Source: Vulcanimicrobiota bacterium | GTDB taxonomy: Bacteria; Vulcanimicrobiota; Vulcanimicrobiia; Eremiobacterales; Eremiobacteraceae | Assembly: GCA_963806005.1 (NCBI GenBank) | Contig: CAWDWJ010000008.1 | Span: forward strand, 276,531 to 340,530 | Reading direction: 5' to 3' | DNA length: 64,000 nt | Part shown: positions 54,641 to 60,165 of the stretch, one piece after another | How the letters are laid out: each line of letters begins with the position of its first letter | Position numbering within the stretch: the stretch's first letter is position 1 | The notes under the pieces: generated by a model | Told to the model about the DNA's origin: nothing | Database searches by the model: none | Seen by the model: the letters and a program-made list of their open reading frames with translations, nothing else | Program-made: the position numbers and the translations under genes

Positions 54641-56149
54641 GTGCCACGCTCTCACGTATTTACAAAGGGCATGCGAATACTTTTCGGACGCGGCGCAGAC
54701 GAGCCGGGCTCAGCCGCACCACCCCCAACCGGCGGTCTCGAGCGAACGGCGTACACCGCTGCCGCCGTATTGCTCGTCGCCCTCTTGGTCTCGATCGTGG
54801 GATCCGTCGTCACCTACGTCCGCGTCAACGCGGCCTACGTTCGCCAGAACTCCATCGCTCTCGCAGAAGAGCAGCTCGAGGATTGCATGCGCAACCAGCT
54901 CGACGAAGAGGCCGCGCTGCGCGGGTTCTTGGCGTCCGGGCAGCGGGTGTTCCTCGAGCCCTACTACCGGGCGCATCCCGACTTCGCCACGCACGTCGAC
55001 GAGCTGCAGCGCCAGCTCGAACGCGCGTCGTTGCAGGAGGGCTACGAGATCGCGTTCGACATGCGACGCTCGCACGCCATCTGGGAGAAGGAGATCGCAC
55101 AGCCGCTCATCGCCCAACCGTCGGCCGGGGGCGAGCTCATGCGCATCAAGAGCGGAAAGATCCTCTCCGATGAGATACGACGCGACCACGACCAGCTGAC
55201 ACTCATCCTCGAAGACCAGTCGACGGCCGCCCAAGACGCCGTCAAGACGTTGCTCCTGCGTGCGGCCTTGCTGACCGCCGCCCTCATGTTGCTCTTCGGC
55301 CTGTCGGCCATCATCGCCGACATCGTGCGATCCCGGACCCAGGTGGCCCTCGAGCGCGAGCGCATGGTGGGCGACACGCTGCAGCGCGCGTTCCTCAGCG
55401 GCTGGGACGTCATCTCCTATCTCCGCGTGGGGACGGCGTATCTGTCGGCCGCCCGCAACGTCGCCGTCGGCGGCGACCTCTTCGACGTCCACCGTATCGA
55501 CGAGAACCGCTGCCTGCTCGTGGTCGCCGACGTGTCCGGCAAGGGCCTCGACGCCGCGGTGGACACCGCGTTTGTCAAGTATTCGCTGCGTGCGCTCGTC
55601 GAGGACCACCACGACCCGACGACCCTGCTGCGCAAGTTCAACACGTCCTTCATCAAATCGATCCGCGACGAGACGTCGTTCGTCAGCCTGTTCGCGGGAG
55701 TGCTCGACGCCAGGTCGCAGACCCTGCGCTACGCGAGCGCCGGCCACTCGCCCGTCTACCTGCGGCGCGGCGACCAGGTGAGCCAGCTGCCGGTGACCGG
55801 GCCGCTCATCGGCTTGCGCAGCGAAGACGAGTTCCCGTCGGTCGACGAGGTGCTGTTCCCGCACGACATCCTCGTGCTGGCCACCGACGGGTTCACCGAA
55901 GCACGCGACACCGCGGGGGTGATGATCGATGACGCCGGCGCCATGCGCATCATCCGCGAGGCGCCCAAGCAGCCGCAGAAGCTGGCCGACTACATCGTCG
56001 CCGCGGTGACCCGCGCTTCGGGCGGCCGCATCGCCGACGACCTGGCGCTGCTCATCATCGAGCTTGCTCCCCCGGAGGGGGCAGATGCCAAGGCCGCCCG
56101 CGCGGGCCAAACCCAGGCCGCATCAGCGTTTGCGGCGTCTCGGGCGTAA
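54641..56149 (+). CDS. CHASE3-sensor PP2C/SpoIIE-family serine phosphatase
   Basis: TM - CHASE3-like (EEAALRGFLASGQRVFLEPYY) - TM - PP2C (GGDLFDV, VADVSGKGLDAA, LATDGFTEA). The exact start is uncertain. Confidence 0.8.
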   Translation: MPRSHVFTKGMRILFGRGADEPGSAAPPPTGGLERTAYTAAAVLLVALLVSIVGSVVTYVRVNAAYVRQNSIALAEEQLEDCMRNQLDEEAALRGFLASGQRVFLEPYYRAHPDFATHVDELQRQLERASLQEGYEIAFDMRRSHAIWEKEIAQPLIAQPSAGGELMRIKSGKILSDEIRRDHDQLTLILEDQSTAAQDAVKTLLLRAALLTAALMLLFGLSAIIADIVRSRTQVALERERMVGDTLQRAFLSGWDVISYLRVGTAYLSAARNVAVGGDLFDVHRIDENRCLLVVADVSGKGLDAAVDTAFVKYSLRALVEDHHDPTTLLRKFNTSFIKSIRDETSFVSLFAGVLDARSQTLRYASAGHSPVYLRRGDQVSQLPVTGPLIGLRSEDEFPSVDEVLFPHDILVLATDGFTEARDTAGVMIDDAGAMRIIREAPKQPQKLADYIVAAVTRASGGRIADDLALLIIELAPPEGADAKAARAGQTQAASAFAASRA

Positions 56150-56365
56150 GTGGCGTCCGGACGCTGCGGGCTTGCCTGTGAGGACTGCGGAGAGGTGCTG
56201 TGGATCAGCCAGGGCATGCTGCACGTGCGCTGGCTGCGCGATCGCGAGCATATCGTCCGCGAGGTGGCGCTGCATTCATCCGCGGGCCTGGAGACGTGGA
56301 TGAACGACGGCCTCGCCTTTCTCGACGAGCACCGGGGTCACGGCGTCGTGGTCGTCAGCGAGTAA
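56150..56365 (+). CDS. hypothetical small protein (71 aa)
   Basis: GTG start abutting the phosphatase stop codon; high third-position G+C. No family recognised. Confidence 0.4.
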   Translation: MASGRCGLACEDCGEVLWISQGMLHVRWLRDREHIVREVALHSSAGLETWMNDGLAFLDEHRGHGVVVVSE

Positions 56366-56371
56366 GCGGCG

Positions 56372-56403
56372 AATAAAAAAGAGCGAAGGGCAACTTCGCT
56401 CTT
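56372..56403 (-). terminator. rho-independent terminator of the 13-aa peptide gene
   Basis: Stem AAGAGCGAAG / CTTCGCTCTT with loop GGCAA and a run of T on the minus strand. Confidence 0.7.
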
Positions 56404-56434
56404 CCTCTATGTAACGCTCGACGTTACCTTGTGG

Positions 56435-56476
56435 TTATTTCTTCTTCTTGGCCTTAGCCTTTTTCTTCTTTGCCAT
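56435..56476 (-). CDS. tiny Lys-rich peptide MAKKKKAKAKKKK (13 aa)
   Basis: ATG preceded by GGAGGTG (7-nt spacer) and followed by its own terminator. Leader is homologous to that of 56697-56852. Confidence 0.45.
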   Translation of the reverse strand: MAKKKKAKAKKKK

Positions 56477-56649
56477 TTTCGAACACCTCCATCCTGCGGA
56501 GTAAATGGGGTGACTCGCTCACTACTTGAGCTTGGATGACGTAGTTGCCCTTGGCGCAGGTTTTTTCCTTCTGCCCGACCCACCGATCCGTTGCGCTCAG
56601 ATCGCGGATGATTTTTTCTCGCGCGCCTCACCGCGCGCTTCGTCACAAG

Positions 56650-56678
56650 AAAAAAGAGCGAAGGTTCTCTTCGCTCTT
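56650..56678 (-). terminator. rho-independent terminator of the 51-aa basic protein gene
   Basis: Same stem sequence AAGAGCGAAG / CTTCGCTCTT as at 56379-56403, with a 5-nt loop and a T-run on the minus strand. Confidence 0.7.
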
Positions 56679-56696
56679 GTCAATCTTCGGGTTGGT

Positions 56697-56852
56697 TCAG
56701 CTTCCGAGCGCGCGTCGTACCTTTGCTCTACGCACCGCCTTCTTGACGGCTCGTTTGACTCTGCGCCGGCGTACTGCCTTGCGGACCTTCGCTCTGCGGA
56801 CGGCCTTTCTGACCTTCCGTTTCGCGACGGCCTTTCTGATTCTCTTCGCCAT
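56697..56852 (-). CDS. small Arg/Lys-rich repeat protein (51 aa)
   Basis: MAKRIRKAVAKRKVRKAVRRAKVRKAVRRRRVKRAVKKAVRRAKVRRALGS. GGAGGTG 5 nt upstream of the ATG; own terminator; internal 27-nt repeats. Confidence 0.55.
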   Translation of the reverse strand: MAKRIRKAVAKRKVRKAVRRAKVRKAVRRRRVKRAVKKAVRRAKVRRALGS

Positions 56853-56939
56853 AGTGACACCTCCATTCTGCGGAGTGAATGGGAATGGCTCACACGGGAG
56901 CTCGGATATTGTACTTGCTTCTCGTAGAGAGGTATTCCT

Positions 56940-57989
56940 TTACGCGTGAATGCGCGGATCGACCCGGTCGCGCAGCGGCATTCCCATGCGATGATACTTC
57001 GCAGCGATCATCTCAGCGAGAATCGCGACCGCGATCTCTTCCGGGGATTGCGCACCGATGTCAAGACCGATCGGGCCATGCAGGCGCTCGACGACGTCTG
57101 CGGCGATGCCGGCGTCGAGCAGGCGCGCGCGCCGCTGCGCTTGCGTCTTCTTCGAGCCGATCGCGCCAACGTAGCGCGCACGACCGGGCAGCACCCGCAC
57201 CAAGGTGGGGTCGTCGAACTTCTCGTCGTGCGTCAGCACGGCGATATAGGTGTTCTCGTCGATCGTCAGACCGGGCAGGGCGTCATCTGGCCATTCGACG
57301 ATGAGCGAGGCCGCGTCCGGAAAGCGCTCGCGGTTGCACAGGGTCGGACGCGGGTCGATCACCGTCACCGCAAAGCCGGCCCGGGCCGCCATCGAACACA
57401 GCGCCATGGCGATATGGACCGCCCCCACGAGGATCGCCTGGGGACGGGGTATGCTGACGTCCACGAACATCTGATACTCGCCGACCGCGACGGTGGTCGA
57501 GCGTCCGGCGGCGATGAGGTCGCGCGCGAGCTCCGCGGCCTGGGCCTGCGCCTCGTCGTCGCCGAGGTCGCCCGTCACCCTACCCTCGGCCGCCACCACG
57601 ACCTTGCGTCCGACATTGCGCGGCCCGCGCACGATCGTGCAGACGGCGAACGCGCCGCCGGCGCTCGTGTCGGGAAGCGATACGAGCGGCTCGATGAAGA
57701 CGTCGATCGCACCGCCGCACGAGAGCCCGACATCCCACATCATGTCGCGATTGATGCCGTAGCGGACGATGGCCGGCGCGCCGCTTTCGATGACCGCTTT
57801 GGCCTCCTCGGCAACCGCGGATTCCACGCAGCCGCCGCTCACCGATCCCGCGACGAGTCCCGAGGCCGAGATCGCCATCTTCGCGCCTTCAGAGCGCGGC
57901 GCGGAGCCGTCGACCTTGATGACCGTGGCGAGCGCCAGACGTTCGCCCCGCTTTTGCCATTGCGCGATGCTGTCGATGATGTCTTCCAT
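56940..57989 (-). CDS. XdhC/CoxI-family molybdoenzyme maturation protein
   Basis: Start MEDIIDSIAQWQKRGERLALATVI (CAT at 57987-57989). Motifs SVSGGCVE, and a Rossmann-like AILVGAVHIAMAL. Confidence 0.8.
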   Translation of the reverse strand: MEDIIDSIAQWQKRGERLALATVIKVDGSAPRSEGAKMAISASGLVAGSVSGGCVESAVAEEAKAVIESGAPAIVRYGINRDMMWDVGLSCGGAIDVFIEPLVSLPDTSAGGAFAVCTIVRGPRNVGRKVVVAAEGRVTGDLGDDEAQAQAAELARDLIAAGRSTTVAVGEYQMFVDVSIPRPQAILVGAVHIAMALCSMAARAGFAVTVIDPRPTLCNRERFPDAASLIVEWPDDALPGLTIDENTYIAVLTHDEKFDDPTLVRVLPGRARYVGAIGSKKTQAQRRARLLDAGIAADVVERLHGPIGLDIGAQSPEEIAVAILAEMIAAKYHRMGMPLRDRVDPRIHA

Positions 57990-58009
57990 GGTTGGATCCG
58001 CTCCCCGCG

Positions 58010-59254
58010 TCAGCTTGCGTCCTCGAGCGTTCGGGATTGCGCGCGCGCGGGCCGCCGCCGGTCGACCGCGCGTAACGCCAGGACGAGCTGGACAAGGCTC
58101 TTGAGATTGTGCGCCGGCAGAAAGTCGTCGATGAACGGCAGCGCCGCGCGCATGCCGATGGTCTGAGGCCGGTAGTTGCGCCCACCAAGCAGCGGGTTGA
58201 GCCAGATCAAGCGATAGCTCATGCGCTGCAAGCGCTGCATCTCCCGCGCGAGCAGGCCGATGTCGCCACGGTCCCAACCGTCGCTGATGATGATGACGAT
58301 CGCGCCGCGCGCGAGCACCCTGCGCGCCCAGTTGATGTTGAACTCGTGCAGGCTCTCGCCGATGCGCGTCCCGCCGCCCCAGTCTGCCACGCTCGCCGCG
58401 ACTTCATCGAGCGCTTCGTTGACGTCGCGCCGCCGGATCTGCCTCGTGATGCGTGTGAGGCGCGTGCCGAAGACGAACGCCTCGACGCGGCCTATGGCGC
58501 GGCGCATGGCGTGGACGAATTGCAGCAGGAGGCGCGCATAACGGTCCATGGAGCCCGAGATGTCGCAGAGCAGCACGACATCGCGCTGCTTGAGGCGCGG
58601 CGCCCGCGTGCGCAGGTCGAGCGGTTCGCCGAACTGACGGAGGCTCGCGCGTAGCGTCCGGCGCGCATCGAAAACGCCGCCGCCCGCGCCCGGCGCGGTG
58701 CGCCGTGATACGCGCTTGCCAAGCTCGAGCTGTTTGTGGCGGCTCAACTCGTGCGCCAGCTGCACCTCGGCCGCGGTCAGACGCGAGAAGTCTTTTTCGC
58801 CGAGCGCTTCGGCGAAGCTATAGGTGAAGCTGCGGTCGCCCTGGGGGACCACCTTCGCATCGGCGGGCGCTACGTGAGCGTCGCTCTGCGCGGCCGGTTC
58901 GGCGTGTGGTCGGCCCTGCTCGGCGGCTGCCTGTTGGGCCGGGAGCGCGGGCCGACCGTCGGCGTCGGCGCCCGGCACGTTCTCGTTGTGCTCGTCTCGC
59001 TCGTCAGGTCCGCGCGACATCCCTGCGCTCGACCAGAACGCGTCGAAGGCGGCGTCGAAACGGCGCCGCTCGTCCGCGCTGCGCACGAAGACGCAGCGTC
59101 CTGCCGCTTTGACGTCTTCGCGTGAGGAGAACCCGATCTGCGTGAGCGCTCGGGCGAAGAGCACGATGCGATCGGGCTGGGCGCCGAGGCCGAACCTGCG
59201 CAGCACGCGGCCGAAGATGATGAGGTTGAGCGCGATCGTTGGGGCGCCCGTCAT
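58010..59254 (-). CDS. coxE: VWA-domain protein, CoxE family
   Basis: CoxE-like N-terminus (FGRVLRRFGL) and VWA MIDAS (VLLCDISGSM). 4-nt overlap with coxD. Confidence 0.75.
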   Translation of the reverse strand: MTGAPTIALNLIIFGRVLRRFGLGAQPDRIVLFARALTQIGFSSREDVKAAGRCVFVRSADERRRFDAAFDAFWSSAGMSRGPDERDEHNENVPGADADGRPALPAQQAAAEQGRPHAEPAAQSDAHVAPADAKVVPQGDRSFTYSFAEALGEKDFSRLTAAEVQLAHELSRHKQLELGKRVSRRTAPGAGGGVFDARRTLRASLRQFGEPLDLRTRAPRLKQRDVVLLCDISGSMDRYARLLLQFVHAMRRAIGRVEAFVFGTRLTRITRQIRRRDVNEALDEVAASVADWGGGTRIGESLHEFNINWARRVLARGAIVIIISDGWDRGDIGLLAREMQRLQRMSYRLIWLNPLLGGRNYRPQTIGMRAALPFIDDFLPAHNLKSLVQLVLALRAVDRRRPARAQSRTLEDAS

Positions 59255-60165
59255 GCGGGGACGGCGGCCTTCTTCGCCTCGTGCACGCGTGCCGCCAGGC
59301 CTGCGTGACGGATCTTCTTGACGTCTTCTTGATACTTGAGGAGCGCGCCGATGGTCTGGGCTGTGACCGTCTCGTCGAGCGTCGTCGTGCCGAGCGCGAC
59401 GAGCGCGGCTGCCCAGTCGATCGTCTCCGCCACGCCGGGCTGCTTGTAGAGCGCTTCCGAGCGCAGGGAAGCGACGAACGCCGCGGCCTCTCGGGCGAGC
59501 GTCCGGCTGATGCCGGGGACCTTGGCTTCGGTGATCTGGGCTTCGCGGGCCAGGTCCGGGTAATCGATCCAGTGGTACAGACAGCGGCGTTTGAGCGCGT
59601 CGTGGACCTCGCGCGTGCGGTTGCTCGTGAGGACGACGATAGGTGGATGCTTGGTCGAGAACGTGCCGATCTCGGGCACAGTCACGGTGAAATCCGACAA
59701 GAGCTCGAGCAGAAAGGCTTCGAATTCCTCATCGGCACGATCGATCTCGTCGATGAGCAGCACGGCGGGGGCATCGCCGCTGTCCTCGATGGCCTGCAAT
59801 AGCGGGCGCTTGATGAGGAACTCAGGACCGAAGATCTCGCGCTCGGTCGCCTCCGAGGATGCAAGACCGCCGCGCGCCTCTGCAAGTCGTATGTGGAGGA
59901 TCTGCCGCGCGTAGTTCCATTCATACACCGCGTGGTTGACGTCGAGGCCTTCGTAGCATTGCAGGCGGATGAGCCGGCGCTGCAGACCGTTCGCCAGCAC
60001 TTTGGCGACCTCGGTCTTGCCCACGCCCGCTTCACCTTCCAGGAAGAGCGGTTTGCCCAGACGCAGGCCTAGGAAGATGGAGACCGCCAGACTGCGGTCC
60101 GCGATGTAGCGGTGCTCTTCGAGCAGACGGCTCACGTCCTCGATGGACTGCGGCATGTGCTCCAT
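59251..60165 (-). CDS. coxD: MoxR-type AAA+ ATPase, CoxD family
   Basis: Start MEHMPQSIEDV. Walker A GEAGVGKT, Walker B LLIDEIDRA. Confidence 0.8.
   Translation of the reverse strand: MEHMPQSIEDVSRLLEEHRYIADRSLAVSIFLGLRLGKPLFLEGEAGVGKTEVAKVLANGLQRRLIRLQCYEGLDVNHAVYEWNYARQILHIRLAEARGGLASSEATEREIFGPEFLIKRPLLQAIEDSGDAPAVLLIDEIDRADEEFEAFLLELLSDFTVTVPEIGTFSTKHPPIVVLTSNRTREVHDALKRRCLYHWIDYPDLAREAQITEAKVPGISRTLAREAAAFVASLRSEALYKQPGVAETIDWAAALVALGTTTLDETVTAQTIGALLKYQEDVKKIRHAGLAARVHEAKKAAVPA

What the first reader, a model, noticed from the sequence alone, without database searches (positions are those of the whole stretch)
56435..56920. Paired tiny, hyper-basic peptide genes with a shared structured leader and twin terminators
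Two minus-strand mini-genes encode MAKKKKAKAKKKK (13 aa, 56435-56476) and a 51-aa protein that is about 60 percent Arg+Lys (56697-56852). Each has a strong GGAGGTG Shine-Dalgarno sequence. Their leaders are conserved over about 65 nt (..TAC..ATCC.AGCTC..GT.GTGAGC...CCCATT.ACTCCGCAG.ATGGAGGTGT). A hairpin CCATT-N10-AATGG pairs with the first bases of the SD (56863-82; weaker at 56489-508). The two terminators use the identical stem AAGAGCGAAG/CTTCGCTCTT. Such duplicated, autonomously expressed basic peptides recall small ribosome-associated proteins (Thx, bS22 class) or nucleic-acid-coating peptides. I cannot match them to a named family. The SD-sequestering hairpin suggests translational control.
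Basis: partly seen in the sequence, partly recalled or inferred. Interest (0 to 1): 0.6.

Follow-up and report, generated by a model that had tools for sequence, protein, structure and literature searches.

The report
Gated polylysine and polyarginine micro-genes
Two unannotated mini-genes in an uncultured soil bacterium (family Eremiobacteraceae) encode a 13-residue polylysine peptide and a 51-residue arginine/lysine helix. The lysine gene, an RNA hairpin that masks its ribosome-binding site and an oddly invariant terminator are kept in almost every genome of the family, so this is a real gene unit whose function is untested but is probably coating of nucleic acids.

Summary
Window 56375-56940 (minus strand) carries two stand-alone units, each made of a leader, a tiny basic ORF and a terminator. 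The organism is an Eremiobacterota MAG.

**Distribution.** The lysine unit is a vertically inherited, syntenic micro-gene (xdhC, then the unit, facing a SpoIIE/CHASE3 gene). A covariance model finds it in 30 of 31 Eremiobacteraceae genomes (10 genera) and in soil metagenomes. It finds no true match in about 190 genomes of 20 other families of the phylum.

**Coding.** The ORFs look translated. The start codon sits 5-8 nt after GGAGGUG. ORF lengths (13-30 codons) differ by whole codons. Substitutions fall mainly at third codon positions.

**Conserved non-coding islands.** Between genera, two islands stand out against a roughly 50% background:
- the hairpin that sequesters the Shine-Dalgarno sequence (86% identity);
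- the terminator stem core GAGCGAA/UUCGCUC (92-96% identity), which is found only at these units in the six genomes checked.

**Paralogue.** The 51-aa Arg/Lys gene is a genus-level duplicate that kept the leader and terminator. Its ORF grew by 27-nt tandem repeats and is predicted to be one long helix.

**Known families.** Nothing matches in Pfam, NCBIfam, PDB or Rfam. This is not Thx, bS22 or bL37, and not an attenuator, because no gene lies downstream.

**Best reading.** A translationally gated, nucleic-acid-binding polycation; the function is inferred, not shown.

Earlier notes of this scan describe similar polylysine micro-genes in other phyla. I did not test those notes here.

The parts
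56934..56940 (-). Unit A upstream box AAGGAAT. It starts on the last base of the xdhC stop codon. GCAAGT/TACAAT follows at 56918-56908. Possible promoter.
   Evidence: The boxes AAAGGrrt, 16-17 nt, GCAAnT, about 10 nt, then hairpin P1 recur in 56 distinct units. There is no sigma-70 consensus hit, so the promoter role is inferred only.
56888..56901 (-). Unit A hairpin P1 (GCUC, 6-nt loop, GAGC).
   Evidence: The GCUC/GAGC stem is kept in 34 of 34 distinct leaders that have letters at those pairs, while loop length varies from 4 to 9 nt.
56858..56887 (-). Unit A hairpin P2 with the SD GGAGGUG (56864-56858) as its 3' arm. The loop is ACUCCGCA.
   Evidence: Minimum-energy fold, -9.8 kcal/mol at 37 C. 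Covariance model R1 scores 52 bits, E = 8e-14.
56697..56852 (-). ORF A: 51 aa, 53% Arg+Lys. Residues 2-50 are predicted to form one alpha-helix. The ORF is built from 9-aa (27-nt) repeats.
   Evidence: Tandem repeat of 2.7 copies at 80% identity. Compared with the G003 orthologue, 15 of 22 differences are at third codon positions, including AGA/CGC Arg synonyms. AlphaFold2 gives a helix over residues 2-50 with pLDDT 86.7.
56648..56678 (-). Unit A intrinsic terminator: stem AAGAGCGAAG/CUUCGCUCUU plus a U-run.
56543..56570 (-). Unit B upstream boxes: AAGGAA (56570-56565) and GCAACT (56548-56543). Possible promoter.
   Evidence: Inferred.
56517..56531 (-). Unit B hairpin P1 (GCUCA, 5-nt loop, UGAGC).
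56484..56512 (-). Unit B hairpin P2: CACCCCAUUU / loop ACUCCGCA / GGAUGG-A-GGUG. The SD is at 56490-56484.
   Evidence: Minimum-energy and centroid fold, -11.1 kcal/mol for the hairpin alone. R1 scores 81 bits, E = 7e-24. Mean identity between genera is 86%.
56435..56476 (-). ORF B: 13 codons (Met, Ala, then 9 Lys and 2 Ala) plus TAA. This is the family-wide polylysine micro-gene.
   Evidence: Orthologues of 13-30 codons are found in 10 genera. The start lies 7-8 nt after GGAGGUG, and differences are biased to third codon positions.
56411..56428 (-). Small hairpin in the 3' UTR of unit B (GUAACG..CGUUAC). It is not conserved outside the genus.
   Evidence: The 3' UTR spacer is 49% identical between genera.
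56375..56403 (-). Unit B intrinsic terminator: stem AAGAGCGAAG/CUUCGCUCUU plus U6.
   Evidence: The stem arms are 92-96% identical between genera while the loop is 32%. In the six genomes checked the motif occurs only at these units.

Best explanation
Each unit is an independent short transcript of about 150 nt (unit B) or about 260 nt (unit A). Each is translated into a tiny, free, highly cationic peptide.

The ancestral gene, present across Eremiobacteraceae, makes an oligolysine/alanine peptide of 13-30 residues. In the window's genus a duplicate kept the leader and terminator but expanded its ORF by 27-nt repeats into a 51-residue Arg/Lys helix.

Translation is gated in cis. The strong SD (GGAGGUG) is the 3' arm of a hairpin. 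The 5' arm of that hairpin (GUCACCCCAUUU) resembles the 3' tail of the organism's own 16S rRNA. A second CUCC in the loop can also pair with the SD. A 30S subunit must therefore displace an internal SD:anti-SD duplex of about -10 to -11 kcal/mol.

I infer that this keeps output of a potentially toxic polycation low or conditional, and that the peptides act by charge, coating or condensing RNA or DNA like a protamine or a histone-H1 tail. They may feed back on their own structured mRNA.

Shown here: conservation, coding signature, the fold, and restriction of these elements to this gene. Inferred: transcription start, gating, the peptides' targets and any feedback.
For: **Conservation and distribution**
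- Covariance model R1 hits 30 of 31 family genomes at E <= 5e-10, with one or two hits per genome.
- In the class and phylum samples (about 190 genomes, 20 other families) there are only five weak hits, at 19-24 bits. None has a basic ORF behind it.
- The pattern scans of public genomes and of metagenomes together added 63 distinct units, almost all labelled Eremiobacterota or from soil.
- Synteny (xdhC, unit, facing SpoIIE/CHASE3) holds in the five genera whose flanking genes were scanned against Pfam.

**Coding signature**
- In 20 same-length pairs, differences by codon position are 26/16/83. There are 68 synonymous and 31 non-synonymous codon changes (the pairs are not independent).
- ORF length varies only by whole codons.

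**Selection on the RNA**
- Identity between genera is 86% for P2 and 92% and 96% for the two terminator arms. It is 49-54% for flanks and the 3' UTR spacer, and 32% for the terminator loop.
- 98% of pair cells in P1 and P2 form standard pairs, against 38-53% when partners are slid.
- The terminator shows compensatory double changes: GCGGAGG/CCUCCGC, GCGAGG/CCUCGC and GGGCG/CGCCC.

**Fold**
- P2 is the minimum-energy structure. The whole unit B transcript folds at -51.9 kcal/mol, z = -4.1.
- The duplex of the SD with the 16S tail is -15 to -16 kcal/mol, so the hairpin is a real competitor.

**Cis elements travel with basic ORFs**
- The Arg-rich paralogues in genera g1 and g4 keep the leader and terminator.
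- A second Lys gene in G008 has a different leader, which again has a CACCU segment complementary to the AGGUG of its own SD, and the same terminator.
- In G005 two ORFs, each with its own P2 hairpin, share one terminator.

**Peptide shape**
- The 51-aa product is predicted to be a single helix.
Against: - There are no expression data of any kind, so transcription, translation and peptide stability are unproven.
- P1 and P2 are too conserved to show covariation: only 1 pair has a change on both sides. The helices therefore rest on conserved complementarity. The 3' arm of P2 is constrained anyway because it is the SD.
- Sequence-specific conservation of the P2 loop and of the terminator core is not what a non-specific polycation would select. 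It points to a base-pairing partner or a sequence-specific protein that I could not identify.
- A hairpin of -10 to -11 kcal/mol does not prove regulation. It could simply tune a constitutive level.
- Spermidine synthase is present in this family as in its sister family, so there is no sign that the peptide replaces polyamines.
Confidence: 0.5

Rival explanations
1. Ribosome-associated micro-protein. The peptides are lineage-specific small ribosomal or ribosome-hibernation components, like Thx, bS22, bL37 or eL41. The leader is a ribosomal-protein-type autoregulatory site.
For: - Size, charge, a strong SD and a near-universal single copy in the family fit this class.
- A leader found only at this gene is the logic of ribosomal-protein leaders.
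- Lineage-specific tiny ribosomal proteins are precedented: bS22 lies near the decoding centre and bL37 near the peptidyl transferase centre in mycobacteria (PMC6133939).
Against: - No match to any ribosomal family in Pfam or NCBIfam, or to any PDB chain.
- Length varies from 13 to 30 aa with low-complexity drift, unlike fitted ribosomal proteins.
- The loop motif and its complement are absent from the organism's rRNA operon, so no rRNA mimicry was found.
- The gene is not near translation genes.
Confidence: 0.15
2. Regulatory or dual-function small RNA. The roughly 150-nt transcript acts mainly as an RNA. The exposed C-rich loop (ACUCCGCAG) would pair with the SD regions of other mRNAs. The AAR-rich tract and U-tailed terminator would serve as Hfq-binding modules. 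The peptide would be secondary.
For: - The most conserved parts are non-coding (P2 and the terminator stem), while the ORF is only 65% identical.
- The AAR codon run is an (ARN)n tract, and the transcript ends in a hairpin plus U-tail.
- Hfq is present in all five family genomes tested.
- C-rich loops that target SDs are a known small-RNA design (my own knowledge).
Against: - In-frame start and stop are kept in more than 50 variants, indels are whole codons, and changes are biased to third positions.
- Ala and Thr codons vary synonymously.
- The Arg-rich paralogues have no ARN tract but keep the leader and terminator.
- No target was sought or found.
Confidence: 0.13
3. No regulation. P1, P2 and the terminator are stability and expression elements of a very short, constitutively expressed mRNA. 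They would provide a 5' hairpin against 5'-end-dependent decay, a strong 3' hairpin, and a damped SD.
For: - P1 lies where the 5' end is expected.
- Nothing resembling a ligand pocket exists.
- Rfam has no match.
- There is no covariation-supported complex fold.
Against: This does not explain why the terminator core and the P2 loop are invariant in sequence rather than only in pairing. It also does not explain why the stem is found only at these units in the genomes checked.
Confidence: 0.12
4. Lysine-sensing leader peptide or transcription attenuator, like hisL, pheL or thrL.
For: A run of one codon type in a tiny ORF, followed by a terminator.
Against: - Nothing lies downstream. Unit B is followed by a convergent ORF and then the SpoIIE/CHASE3 gene, and the same layout holds in five genera.
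- The stop codon is 18-35 nt from the terminator stem, so a terminating ribosome would hardly touch it.
- No alternative anti-terminator pairing was found.
Confidence: 0.03
5. Type I toxin-antitoxin-like pair. The antisense of the Lys codons (CTT/TTT) would encode a hydrophobic Leu/Phe peptide (plus-strand ORF 56429-56539), and the minus-strand RNA would be its antisense regulator.
For: A 36-codon plus-strand ORF with a hydrophobic N-terminus exists.
Against: - It has a TTG start and no SD, and no U-run follows the hairpin on that strand.
- Synonymous Ala changes on the sense strand would become Cys, Arg, Gly or Ser swaps inside the hydrophobic stretch.
- The sense strand has a perfect SD and fixed spacing in every unit.
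Confidence: 0.02

Closest known systems
Very small basic ribosomal proteins (Thx, bS22, bL37, eL41)
   Same: Tens of residues or fewer, extreme positive charge, often lineage-specific, often missed by annotation. bS22 and bL37 were found only by cryo-EM of mycobacterial ribosomes (PMC6133939).
   Different: No sequence relation was detected. The Eremiobacteraceae peptides vary in length from 13 to 30 aa and are low-complexity. Ribosome binding was not tested.
Autogenous translational control through ribosomal-protein leaders and other SD-sequestering 5' UTR hairpins
   Same: The leader is specific to one gene, the SD is locked in a helix, and the product is a basic nucleic-acid binder that could stabilise the closed form.
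   Different: No rRNA mimic was found. The helix is simply an internal anti-SD. Feedback is inferred. Rfam 15 has no matching family.
Small basic DNA-binding or nucleoid-condensing proteins: Coxiella ScvA and Hq1, chlamydial Hc1/Hc2, protamines, Lys/Ala-rich histone-H1-like tails
   Same: Lys/Ala/Thr or Arg-rich low-complexity polycations that act by charge. ScvA and Hq1 are 'small basic DNA binding proteins' enriched in the dormant small cell variant (PMC4766238). The nearest Atlas cluster with any Pfam family carries HC2, weakly (score 0.78).
   Different: No homology. The peptides here are much shorter (13-30 aa). No developmental cycle is known for this family. DNA binding was not tested.
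Arginine-rich-motif peptides that bind RNA hairpins (lambda N with boxB, Tat with TAR, Rev with RRE)
   Same: The 51-aa product is a continuous Arg/Lys helix, and its own mRNA carries two or three conserved hairpins.
   Different: This is an analogy from my own knowledge only. No binding specificity is shown. The Lys peptides are unlikely to read sequence.
Leader-peptide attenuators (hisL, pheL, thrL, trpL)
   Same: A tiny ORF with a run of one amino acid, followed by an intrinsic terminator.
   Different: There is no downstream gene to regulate, and no alternative anti-terminator.

Membership tests
Thx / bS22 / bL37 small ribosomal proteins | Sequence match to the family profile or to a ribosomal chain in a solved structure | tested here: not met
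   hmmscan of six peptides (23-62 aa) against NCBIfam and Pfam at E <= 10 gave only noise. phmmer of the 51-aa and a 30-aa peptide against PDB sequences gave no ribosomal chain. The 13-aa product is too short for these tools.
Thx / bS22 / bL37 small ribosomal proteins | Physical presence in purified ribosomes | not testable with these tools
   Needs ribosome preparations or cryo-EM from a member of the family. I know of no cultured member.
Ribosomal-protein autoregulatory leader | The leader mimics the protein's rRNA binding site | tested here: not met
   The loop motif CTCCGCAG and its complement are absent from the 7.2 kb spanning the 16S gene and the sequence downstream of it. There is a single 8-mer match of the terminator arm, about 660 nt past the end of the 16S gene, probably the start of the 23S rRNA. 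That is chance level (about 0.1 expected).
Riboswitch | Conserved multi-helix ligand pocket with covariation, and a match to a known class | tested here: not met
   No Rfam 15 hit at E <= 10 in 55500-58000. There are only two simple hairpins. RNAalifold finds 5 pairs and no compensatory change.
RNA thermometer | SD occluded by a weak, mismatch-rich helix that melts in the physiological range | tested here: inconclusive
   The SD is occluded. However, the helix is G-C rich: -11 kcal/mol at 37 C, -16 at 20 C and -21 at 5 C. It would stay closed in cold soils. Melting was not measured.
Leader-peptide transcription attenuator | A co-oriented regulated gene downstream of the terminator | tested here: not met
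   The downstream neighbour is convergent in the window and in five other genera.
Leader-peptide transcription attenuator | Mutually exclusive terminator and anti-terminator helices coupled to ribosome position | tested here: not met
   The whole-transcript fold shows an independent terminator. The spacer from stop codon to stem is 18-35 nt.
Type I toxin-antitoxin | A translatable small hydrophobic ORF on one strand | tested here: not met
   The plus-strand ORF 56429-56539 has a TTG start and no SD. Its residues are not conserved under the sense strand's synonymous changes.
Hfq-dependent small RNA | Intrinsic terminator with U-tail, an (ARN)n or U-rich Hfq site, and Hfq in the genome | tested here: met
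   U-tailed terminator. AAR-rich tract, which is the ORF. Hfq found in 5 of 5 genomes. These features are permissive only: binding and targets were not tested, and the tract is explained by coding.
CsrA-controlled leader | CsrA present wherever the leader is present | tested here: not met
   CsrA was found in G000 only and not in four other family genomes of 95-98% completeness that carry the leader.

The most novel reading that the evidence does not exclude
The unit is one lineage's version of a widespread but undescribed class of genes: genetically encoded free oligolysine (or oligo-arginine) polycations. Their synthesis would be gated by an RNA device that reads the cell's cation or free-ribosome status. 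Their invariant terminator hairpin would be part of the mechanism, as a partner for the leader loop or a docking site for a dedicated factor. The peptide would work as a tunable counter-ion for RNA or DNA, for example during starvation, cold or desiccation in oligotrophic soils.
Probability: 0.2. Interest if true: 0.8.

Novelty: new variant of a known kind. Interest (0 to 1): 0.6.

Why it matters
Genes this short (13-30 codons) are invisible to annotation pipelines. The searches run here found no family, structure or Rfam model for these peptides or their leader. The large protein-cluster search, run for the 51-aa product only, returned nothing for it, not even the query itself.

Even so, the lysine gene is as well conserved across the family as many housekeeping genes. 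It also carries two non-coding islands under strong sequence selection.

If the peptide is a free cellular polycation, it adds a ribosomally made counterpart to polyamines and nucleoid proteins in a phylum known almost only from metagenomes.

The leader and terminator give a compact, testable case of translation gating. The question of why the terminator sequence itself is invariant can be addressed with simple reporter and binding assays.

Earlier notes of this scan describe comparable polylysine micro-genes in several unrelated phyla. That would make this a general, overlooked gene class rather than a curiosity of one family.

Tried and rejected
- **Rfam.** The scan of 55500-58000 at E <= 10 gave only noise.
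- **Protein families.** Pfam, NCBIfam, PDB sequence search, the ESM Atlas and the 5.8-billion-cluster protein search on the 51-aa product found no relatives. The cluster search refuses queries under 40 aa.
- **Extra hairpin (P0).** A hairpin between the AAGGA and GCAA boxes is not supported. Mean z is -0.5 over 56 sequences, with no common register.
- **Small upstream ORF.** An ORF reading through the leader (the ...LLRRMEV frame) was considered and dropped. Indels in the P1 loop are not multiples of three.
- **Units in the sister families.**
  - The terminator pattern hits there are ordinary terminators after normal genes.
  - No basic tiny ORF follows xdhC there.
  - Five weak covariance-model hits outside the family are spurious.
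  - My ORF-based DNA pattern was too narrow to be informative: it hit only 6 of 31 true carriers.
- **Polyamine replacement.** Spermidine synthase is found in 19 of 24 family genomes and 15 of 15 sister-family genomes, so there is no support.
- **CsrA as the trans factor.** It was not found in four of five genomes tested that carry the leader.
- **rRNA mimicry.** Not found for the loop or the terminator.
- **Pairing between P1 and the terminator.** One lineage changed the terminator core (GGGCG/CGCCC) without any change in P1, which argues against a required P1-terminator duplex.
- **Literature.** Searches for polylysine small ORFs and small ribosomal proteins found nothing describing such a gene.
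Full report
**1. What is in the window**

On the minus strand, two units fill the 574-nt gap between the stop of an xdhC/coxI-type gene (56940) and the end of a convergent small ORF (56365).

- Unit A: hairpin P1 at 56901-56888, hairpin P2 with the SD at 56887-56858, a 51-codon ORF at 56852-56697, and a terminator at 56678-56648.
- Unit B: P1 at 56531-56517, P2 with the SD at 56512-56484, a 13-codon ORF at 56476-56435, and a terminator at 56403-56375.

The two leaders are 80% identical over the alignment. Their 26-nt core occurs twice in the window, against 0.00 expected by chance. Both terminators use the same 10-bp stem.

The 51-aa product is 53% Arg+Lys, not about 60%. The hairpin is longer than described and covers the whole SD.

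**2. Whose genome, and how far the unit reaches**

The window lies in a 2.76-Mb, 70%-complete MAG. An exact-pattern scan of 185,579 species genomes returned 26 loci. Most are labelled Eremiobacterota, Vulcanimicrobiota or Eremiobacteraceae.

I built a covariance model of the leader (R1).
- It finds the leader in 30 of 31 genomes of the window's family, covering 10 genera, at E <= 5e-10, with one copy per genome as a rule.
- It finds only weak hits (19-24 bits) in 3 of 116 genomes of the sister family and none in 3 genomes of a third family.
- A phylum-wide sample gave 6 of 6 in the family, and weak hits in 2 of 114 genomes from 20 other families.
- I inspected all five weak hits. None is followed by a basic ORF.

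A metagenome scan added 41 more loci, and most of the new units are again followed by a Lys-rich ORF.

The locus is syntenic. The xdhC gene lies upstream on the same strand and a SpoIIE/CHASE3 phosphatase gene converges from downstream in genera g2, g3, g4, g7 and g8 as in the window. Sister-family genomes have other genes after xdhC and no tiny basic ORF there.

The unit is thus a vertically inherited innovation of one family.

Genomes G002, G010 and G013 are flagged as unpublished. They are included in the counts. Loci L013, L020 and L026 come from them. The one claim that rests on them alone is the GGGCG/CGCCC terminator variant (L026).

**3. Are the ORFs genes?**

In every unit an ATG or GTG lies 5-8 nt after GGAGGUG.

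The product always begins Met-Ala and is then Lys with scattered Ala, Thr, Ser or Gly. It ends in a Lys run, often followed by His or Arg. Length is 13-30 codons and changes only by whole codons.

In 20 same-length pairs, differences fall 26/16/83 on codon positions 1/2/3. There are 68 synonymous and 31 non-synonymous codon changes. The pairs are phylogenetically dependent, so this is a tendency rather than a formal test.

ORF A and its G003 orthologue differ at 22 sites, 15 of them at third positions. These include multi-base Arg synonyms (AGA/CGC), which only coding selection explains.

The antisense frame would give a Leu/Phe-rich peptide. It has no SD, and it would suffer radical replacements where the sense strand changes synonymously.

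I conclude that the ORFs are very probably translated. No direct expression evidence exists.

**4. The paralogue**

Arg-rich versions are as follows:
- 51 aa in G000 and G003;
- 62 aa in G005;
- 49 aa in G009, and a close relative of it in G018.

They occur only in genera g1 and g4. They carry the family leader and terminator.

AlphaFold2 (single sequence) predicts one helix over residues 2-50 with pLDDT 86.7.

In G005 the Arg ORF and the Lys ORF are bicistronic. A second P2 hairpin starts about 20 nt after the first stop, and the two ORFs share one terminator.

G008 has an extra 20-codon Lys gene. Its leader is different, but a CACCU segment upstream is again complementary to the AGGUG of its SD, and it has the family terminator.

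So the cis elements travel with basic ORFs, whatever the exact peptide.

**5. The RNA**

Using one unit per genus (10 genera), mean pairwise identity is:

| Segment | Identity |
|---|---|
| P2 plus SD | 86% |
| Terminator 5' arm | 92% |
| Terminator 3' arm | 96% |
| ORF | 65% |
| P1 window | 59% |
| Flanks and 3' UTR spacer | 49-54% |
| Terminator loop | 32% |

*P2.* CACCCCAU pairs with AUGG-A-GGUG. In lineages with CACAUCCAU, the extra U pairs with the A or G of the SD. The 5' arm matches the organism's 16S 3' tail (GGAUCACCUCCUUU) at 10 of 14 positions, by my own hand alignment of the two strings. It is therefore an internal anti-SD. The loop holds a second CUCC, and RNAalifold prefers the local CUCCG/UGGAG hairpin, which is -5.2 kcal/mol against -11.1 for P2. 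Either way the SD is paired.

*Pairing statistics.* Across 36 distinct leaders, 98% of pair cells are standard pairs, against 38-53% with slid partners. Only one pair shows a double change. The structure therefore rests on conserved complementarity and thermodynamics, not on covariation.

*Terminator.* The hairpin does show compensatory double changes. Its core GAGCGAA/UUCGCUC is nearly invariant in 56 distinct units. In the six genomes checked it occurs only at these units. The stem matches found in the sister family are unrelated terminators.

*Upstream boxes.* The boxes AAAGGrrt, 16-17 nt, then GCAAnT precede P1 by about 10 nt in all units. They may be a promoter of unknown type. There is no sigma-70 match.

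*Unexplained.* The sequence constraint on the terminator and on the loop has no explanation yet.
- The loop ACUCCGC is complementary to the terminator 5' arm GCGAAGU with one C.A mismatch.
- The complement is perfect in L004.
- In L011 and L096 a C-to-U change in the loop goes with an A-to-G change in the arm.
- The pairing fails in genus g2.

I estimate a chance match at about 3%, so I leave this as a lead only.

**6. What it is not**

- It has no Rfam family.
- It has no protein family, solved structure or Atlas relative.
- It is not an attenuator, because the next gene is convergent in six genera.
- It is not CsrA-controlled: CsrA was not found in four of five carrier genomes tested.
- It shows no rRNA mimicry.
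- There is no link to loss of polyamine synthesis.

Hfq is present in 5 of 5 genomes tested. The transcript formally has an (ARN)n tract and a U-tailed terminator, so an RNA-level role cannot be excluded.

**7. Most likely mechanism**

The following is shown:
- a conserved, autonomous, coding micro-gene;
- an SD locked in an internal SD:anti-SD helix;
- selection on that helix and on the terminator sequence;
- restriction of these elements to this gene.

The following is inferred. The peptides are free polycations that bind nucleic acids by charge. Known analogues are protamine, H1-tail, ScvA and Hq1-like proteins; ScvA and Hq1 are small basic DNA-binding proteins of the Coxiella small cell variant (PMC4766238). 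The hairpin would keep their synthesis low or conditional, because the 30S subunit must out-compete a helix of about -10 to -11 kcal/mol with a duplex of about -15 kcal/mol. The product or another factor may stabilise the closed state.

I put 0.5 on this package. Most of the doubt concerns the target and the feedback, not the reality of the gene. The rivals are:

| Rival | Confidence |
|---|---|
| Ribosome-bound micro-protein | 0.15 |
| Regulatory or dual-function small RNA | 0.13 |
| Purely constitutive stability elements | 0.12 |
| Attenuator | 0.03 |
| Type I toxin-antitoxin | 0.02 |

**8. Novelty**

I found no description of such a gene in the literature searched. Pipelines do not seem to call the 51-aa gene: the protein-cluster search did not return even the query itself.

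Earlier notes of this scan report polylysine micro-genes with gated leaders and near-invariant hairpins in several other groups:
- Bipolaricaulota
- Methylomirabilota
- Chloroflexota (class Limnocylindria)
- Pirellulales
- an alphaproteobacterial clade
- another candidate phylum
- a DPANN archaeon

I did not test those notes. A sequence look-up with unit B found no look-alike among them. If there is a link, it is one of design rather than detectable homology.

I class the finding as a new variant of a known kind: tiny basic nucleic-acid-binding peptides with translational gating. There is a real chance that it belongs to a broader, undescribed class.

Noticed in passing
G000 contig C4:265060-265179 (L134:501-620) and contig C2:234770-234883 (L135:501-614); outside the window: Two more stand-alone Arg/Lys-rich mini-ORFs (39 and 37 aa). 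Each has its own SD and terminator, but the leaders and terminators are unrelated to those in the window. Homologues were found only in G009 and G018 (genus g4), not in the six other genomes of the window's genus that were searched.
   Followed up: partly
L097 (G008 contig C14, about 59190-59260, minus strand): A second polylysine gene (20 codons) in genus g3. Its leader is different, but a CACCU segment upstream is complementary to the AGGUG of its own SD. It has the family's GAGCGAAG/CUUCGCUC terminator.
   Followed up: partly
L016 / L030 (G005; public record JBPYDX010000192.1), positions about 1500-1890 of L016: The Arg-rich 62-codon ORF and the polylysine ORF are bicistronic. There is no terminator between them. 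A second P2 hairpin starts about 20 nt after the first stop codon.
   Followed up: partly
L163 (metagenome contig Ga0116216_10016086): A variant in which the polylysine ORF has lost its stop codon, 3' UTR and terminator. It runs on into an Asp-rich stretch that resembles the antisense of the convergent gene's end. This may be a natural deletion or an assembly artefact.
   Followed up: no
window 56150-56365 (+): A 71-codon ORF directly after the SpoIIE/CHASE3 phosphatase gene, converging on unit B. It has no Pfam match. The DNA of its C-terminal end recurs downstream of the unit in many genera.
   Followed up: partly
window 56495-56502 with 56394-56400, and the same elements in unit A: The P2 loop (ACUCCGC) is complementary to the terminator 5' arm (GCGAAGU) apart from one C.A mismatch. 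The match is perfect or compensated in three lineages and broken in one genus. This may be chance, which I estimate at about 3%.
   Followed up: partly
window 56565-56570 with 56543-56548, and 56934-56940 with 56913-56918: Conserved boxes AAGGAA(T) and GCAAnT, 16-17 nt apart, lie about 10 nt before P1 in all 56 units. They do not fit the sigma-70 consensus. They may be a promoter type of this lineage.
   Followed up: partly
G000 contig C2:132198-132353: A CsrA gene is present in the window's genome. It was not found in four other, more complete genomes of the family.
   Followed up: no
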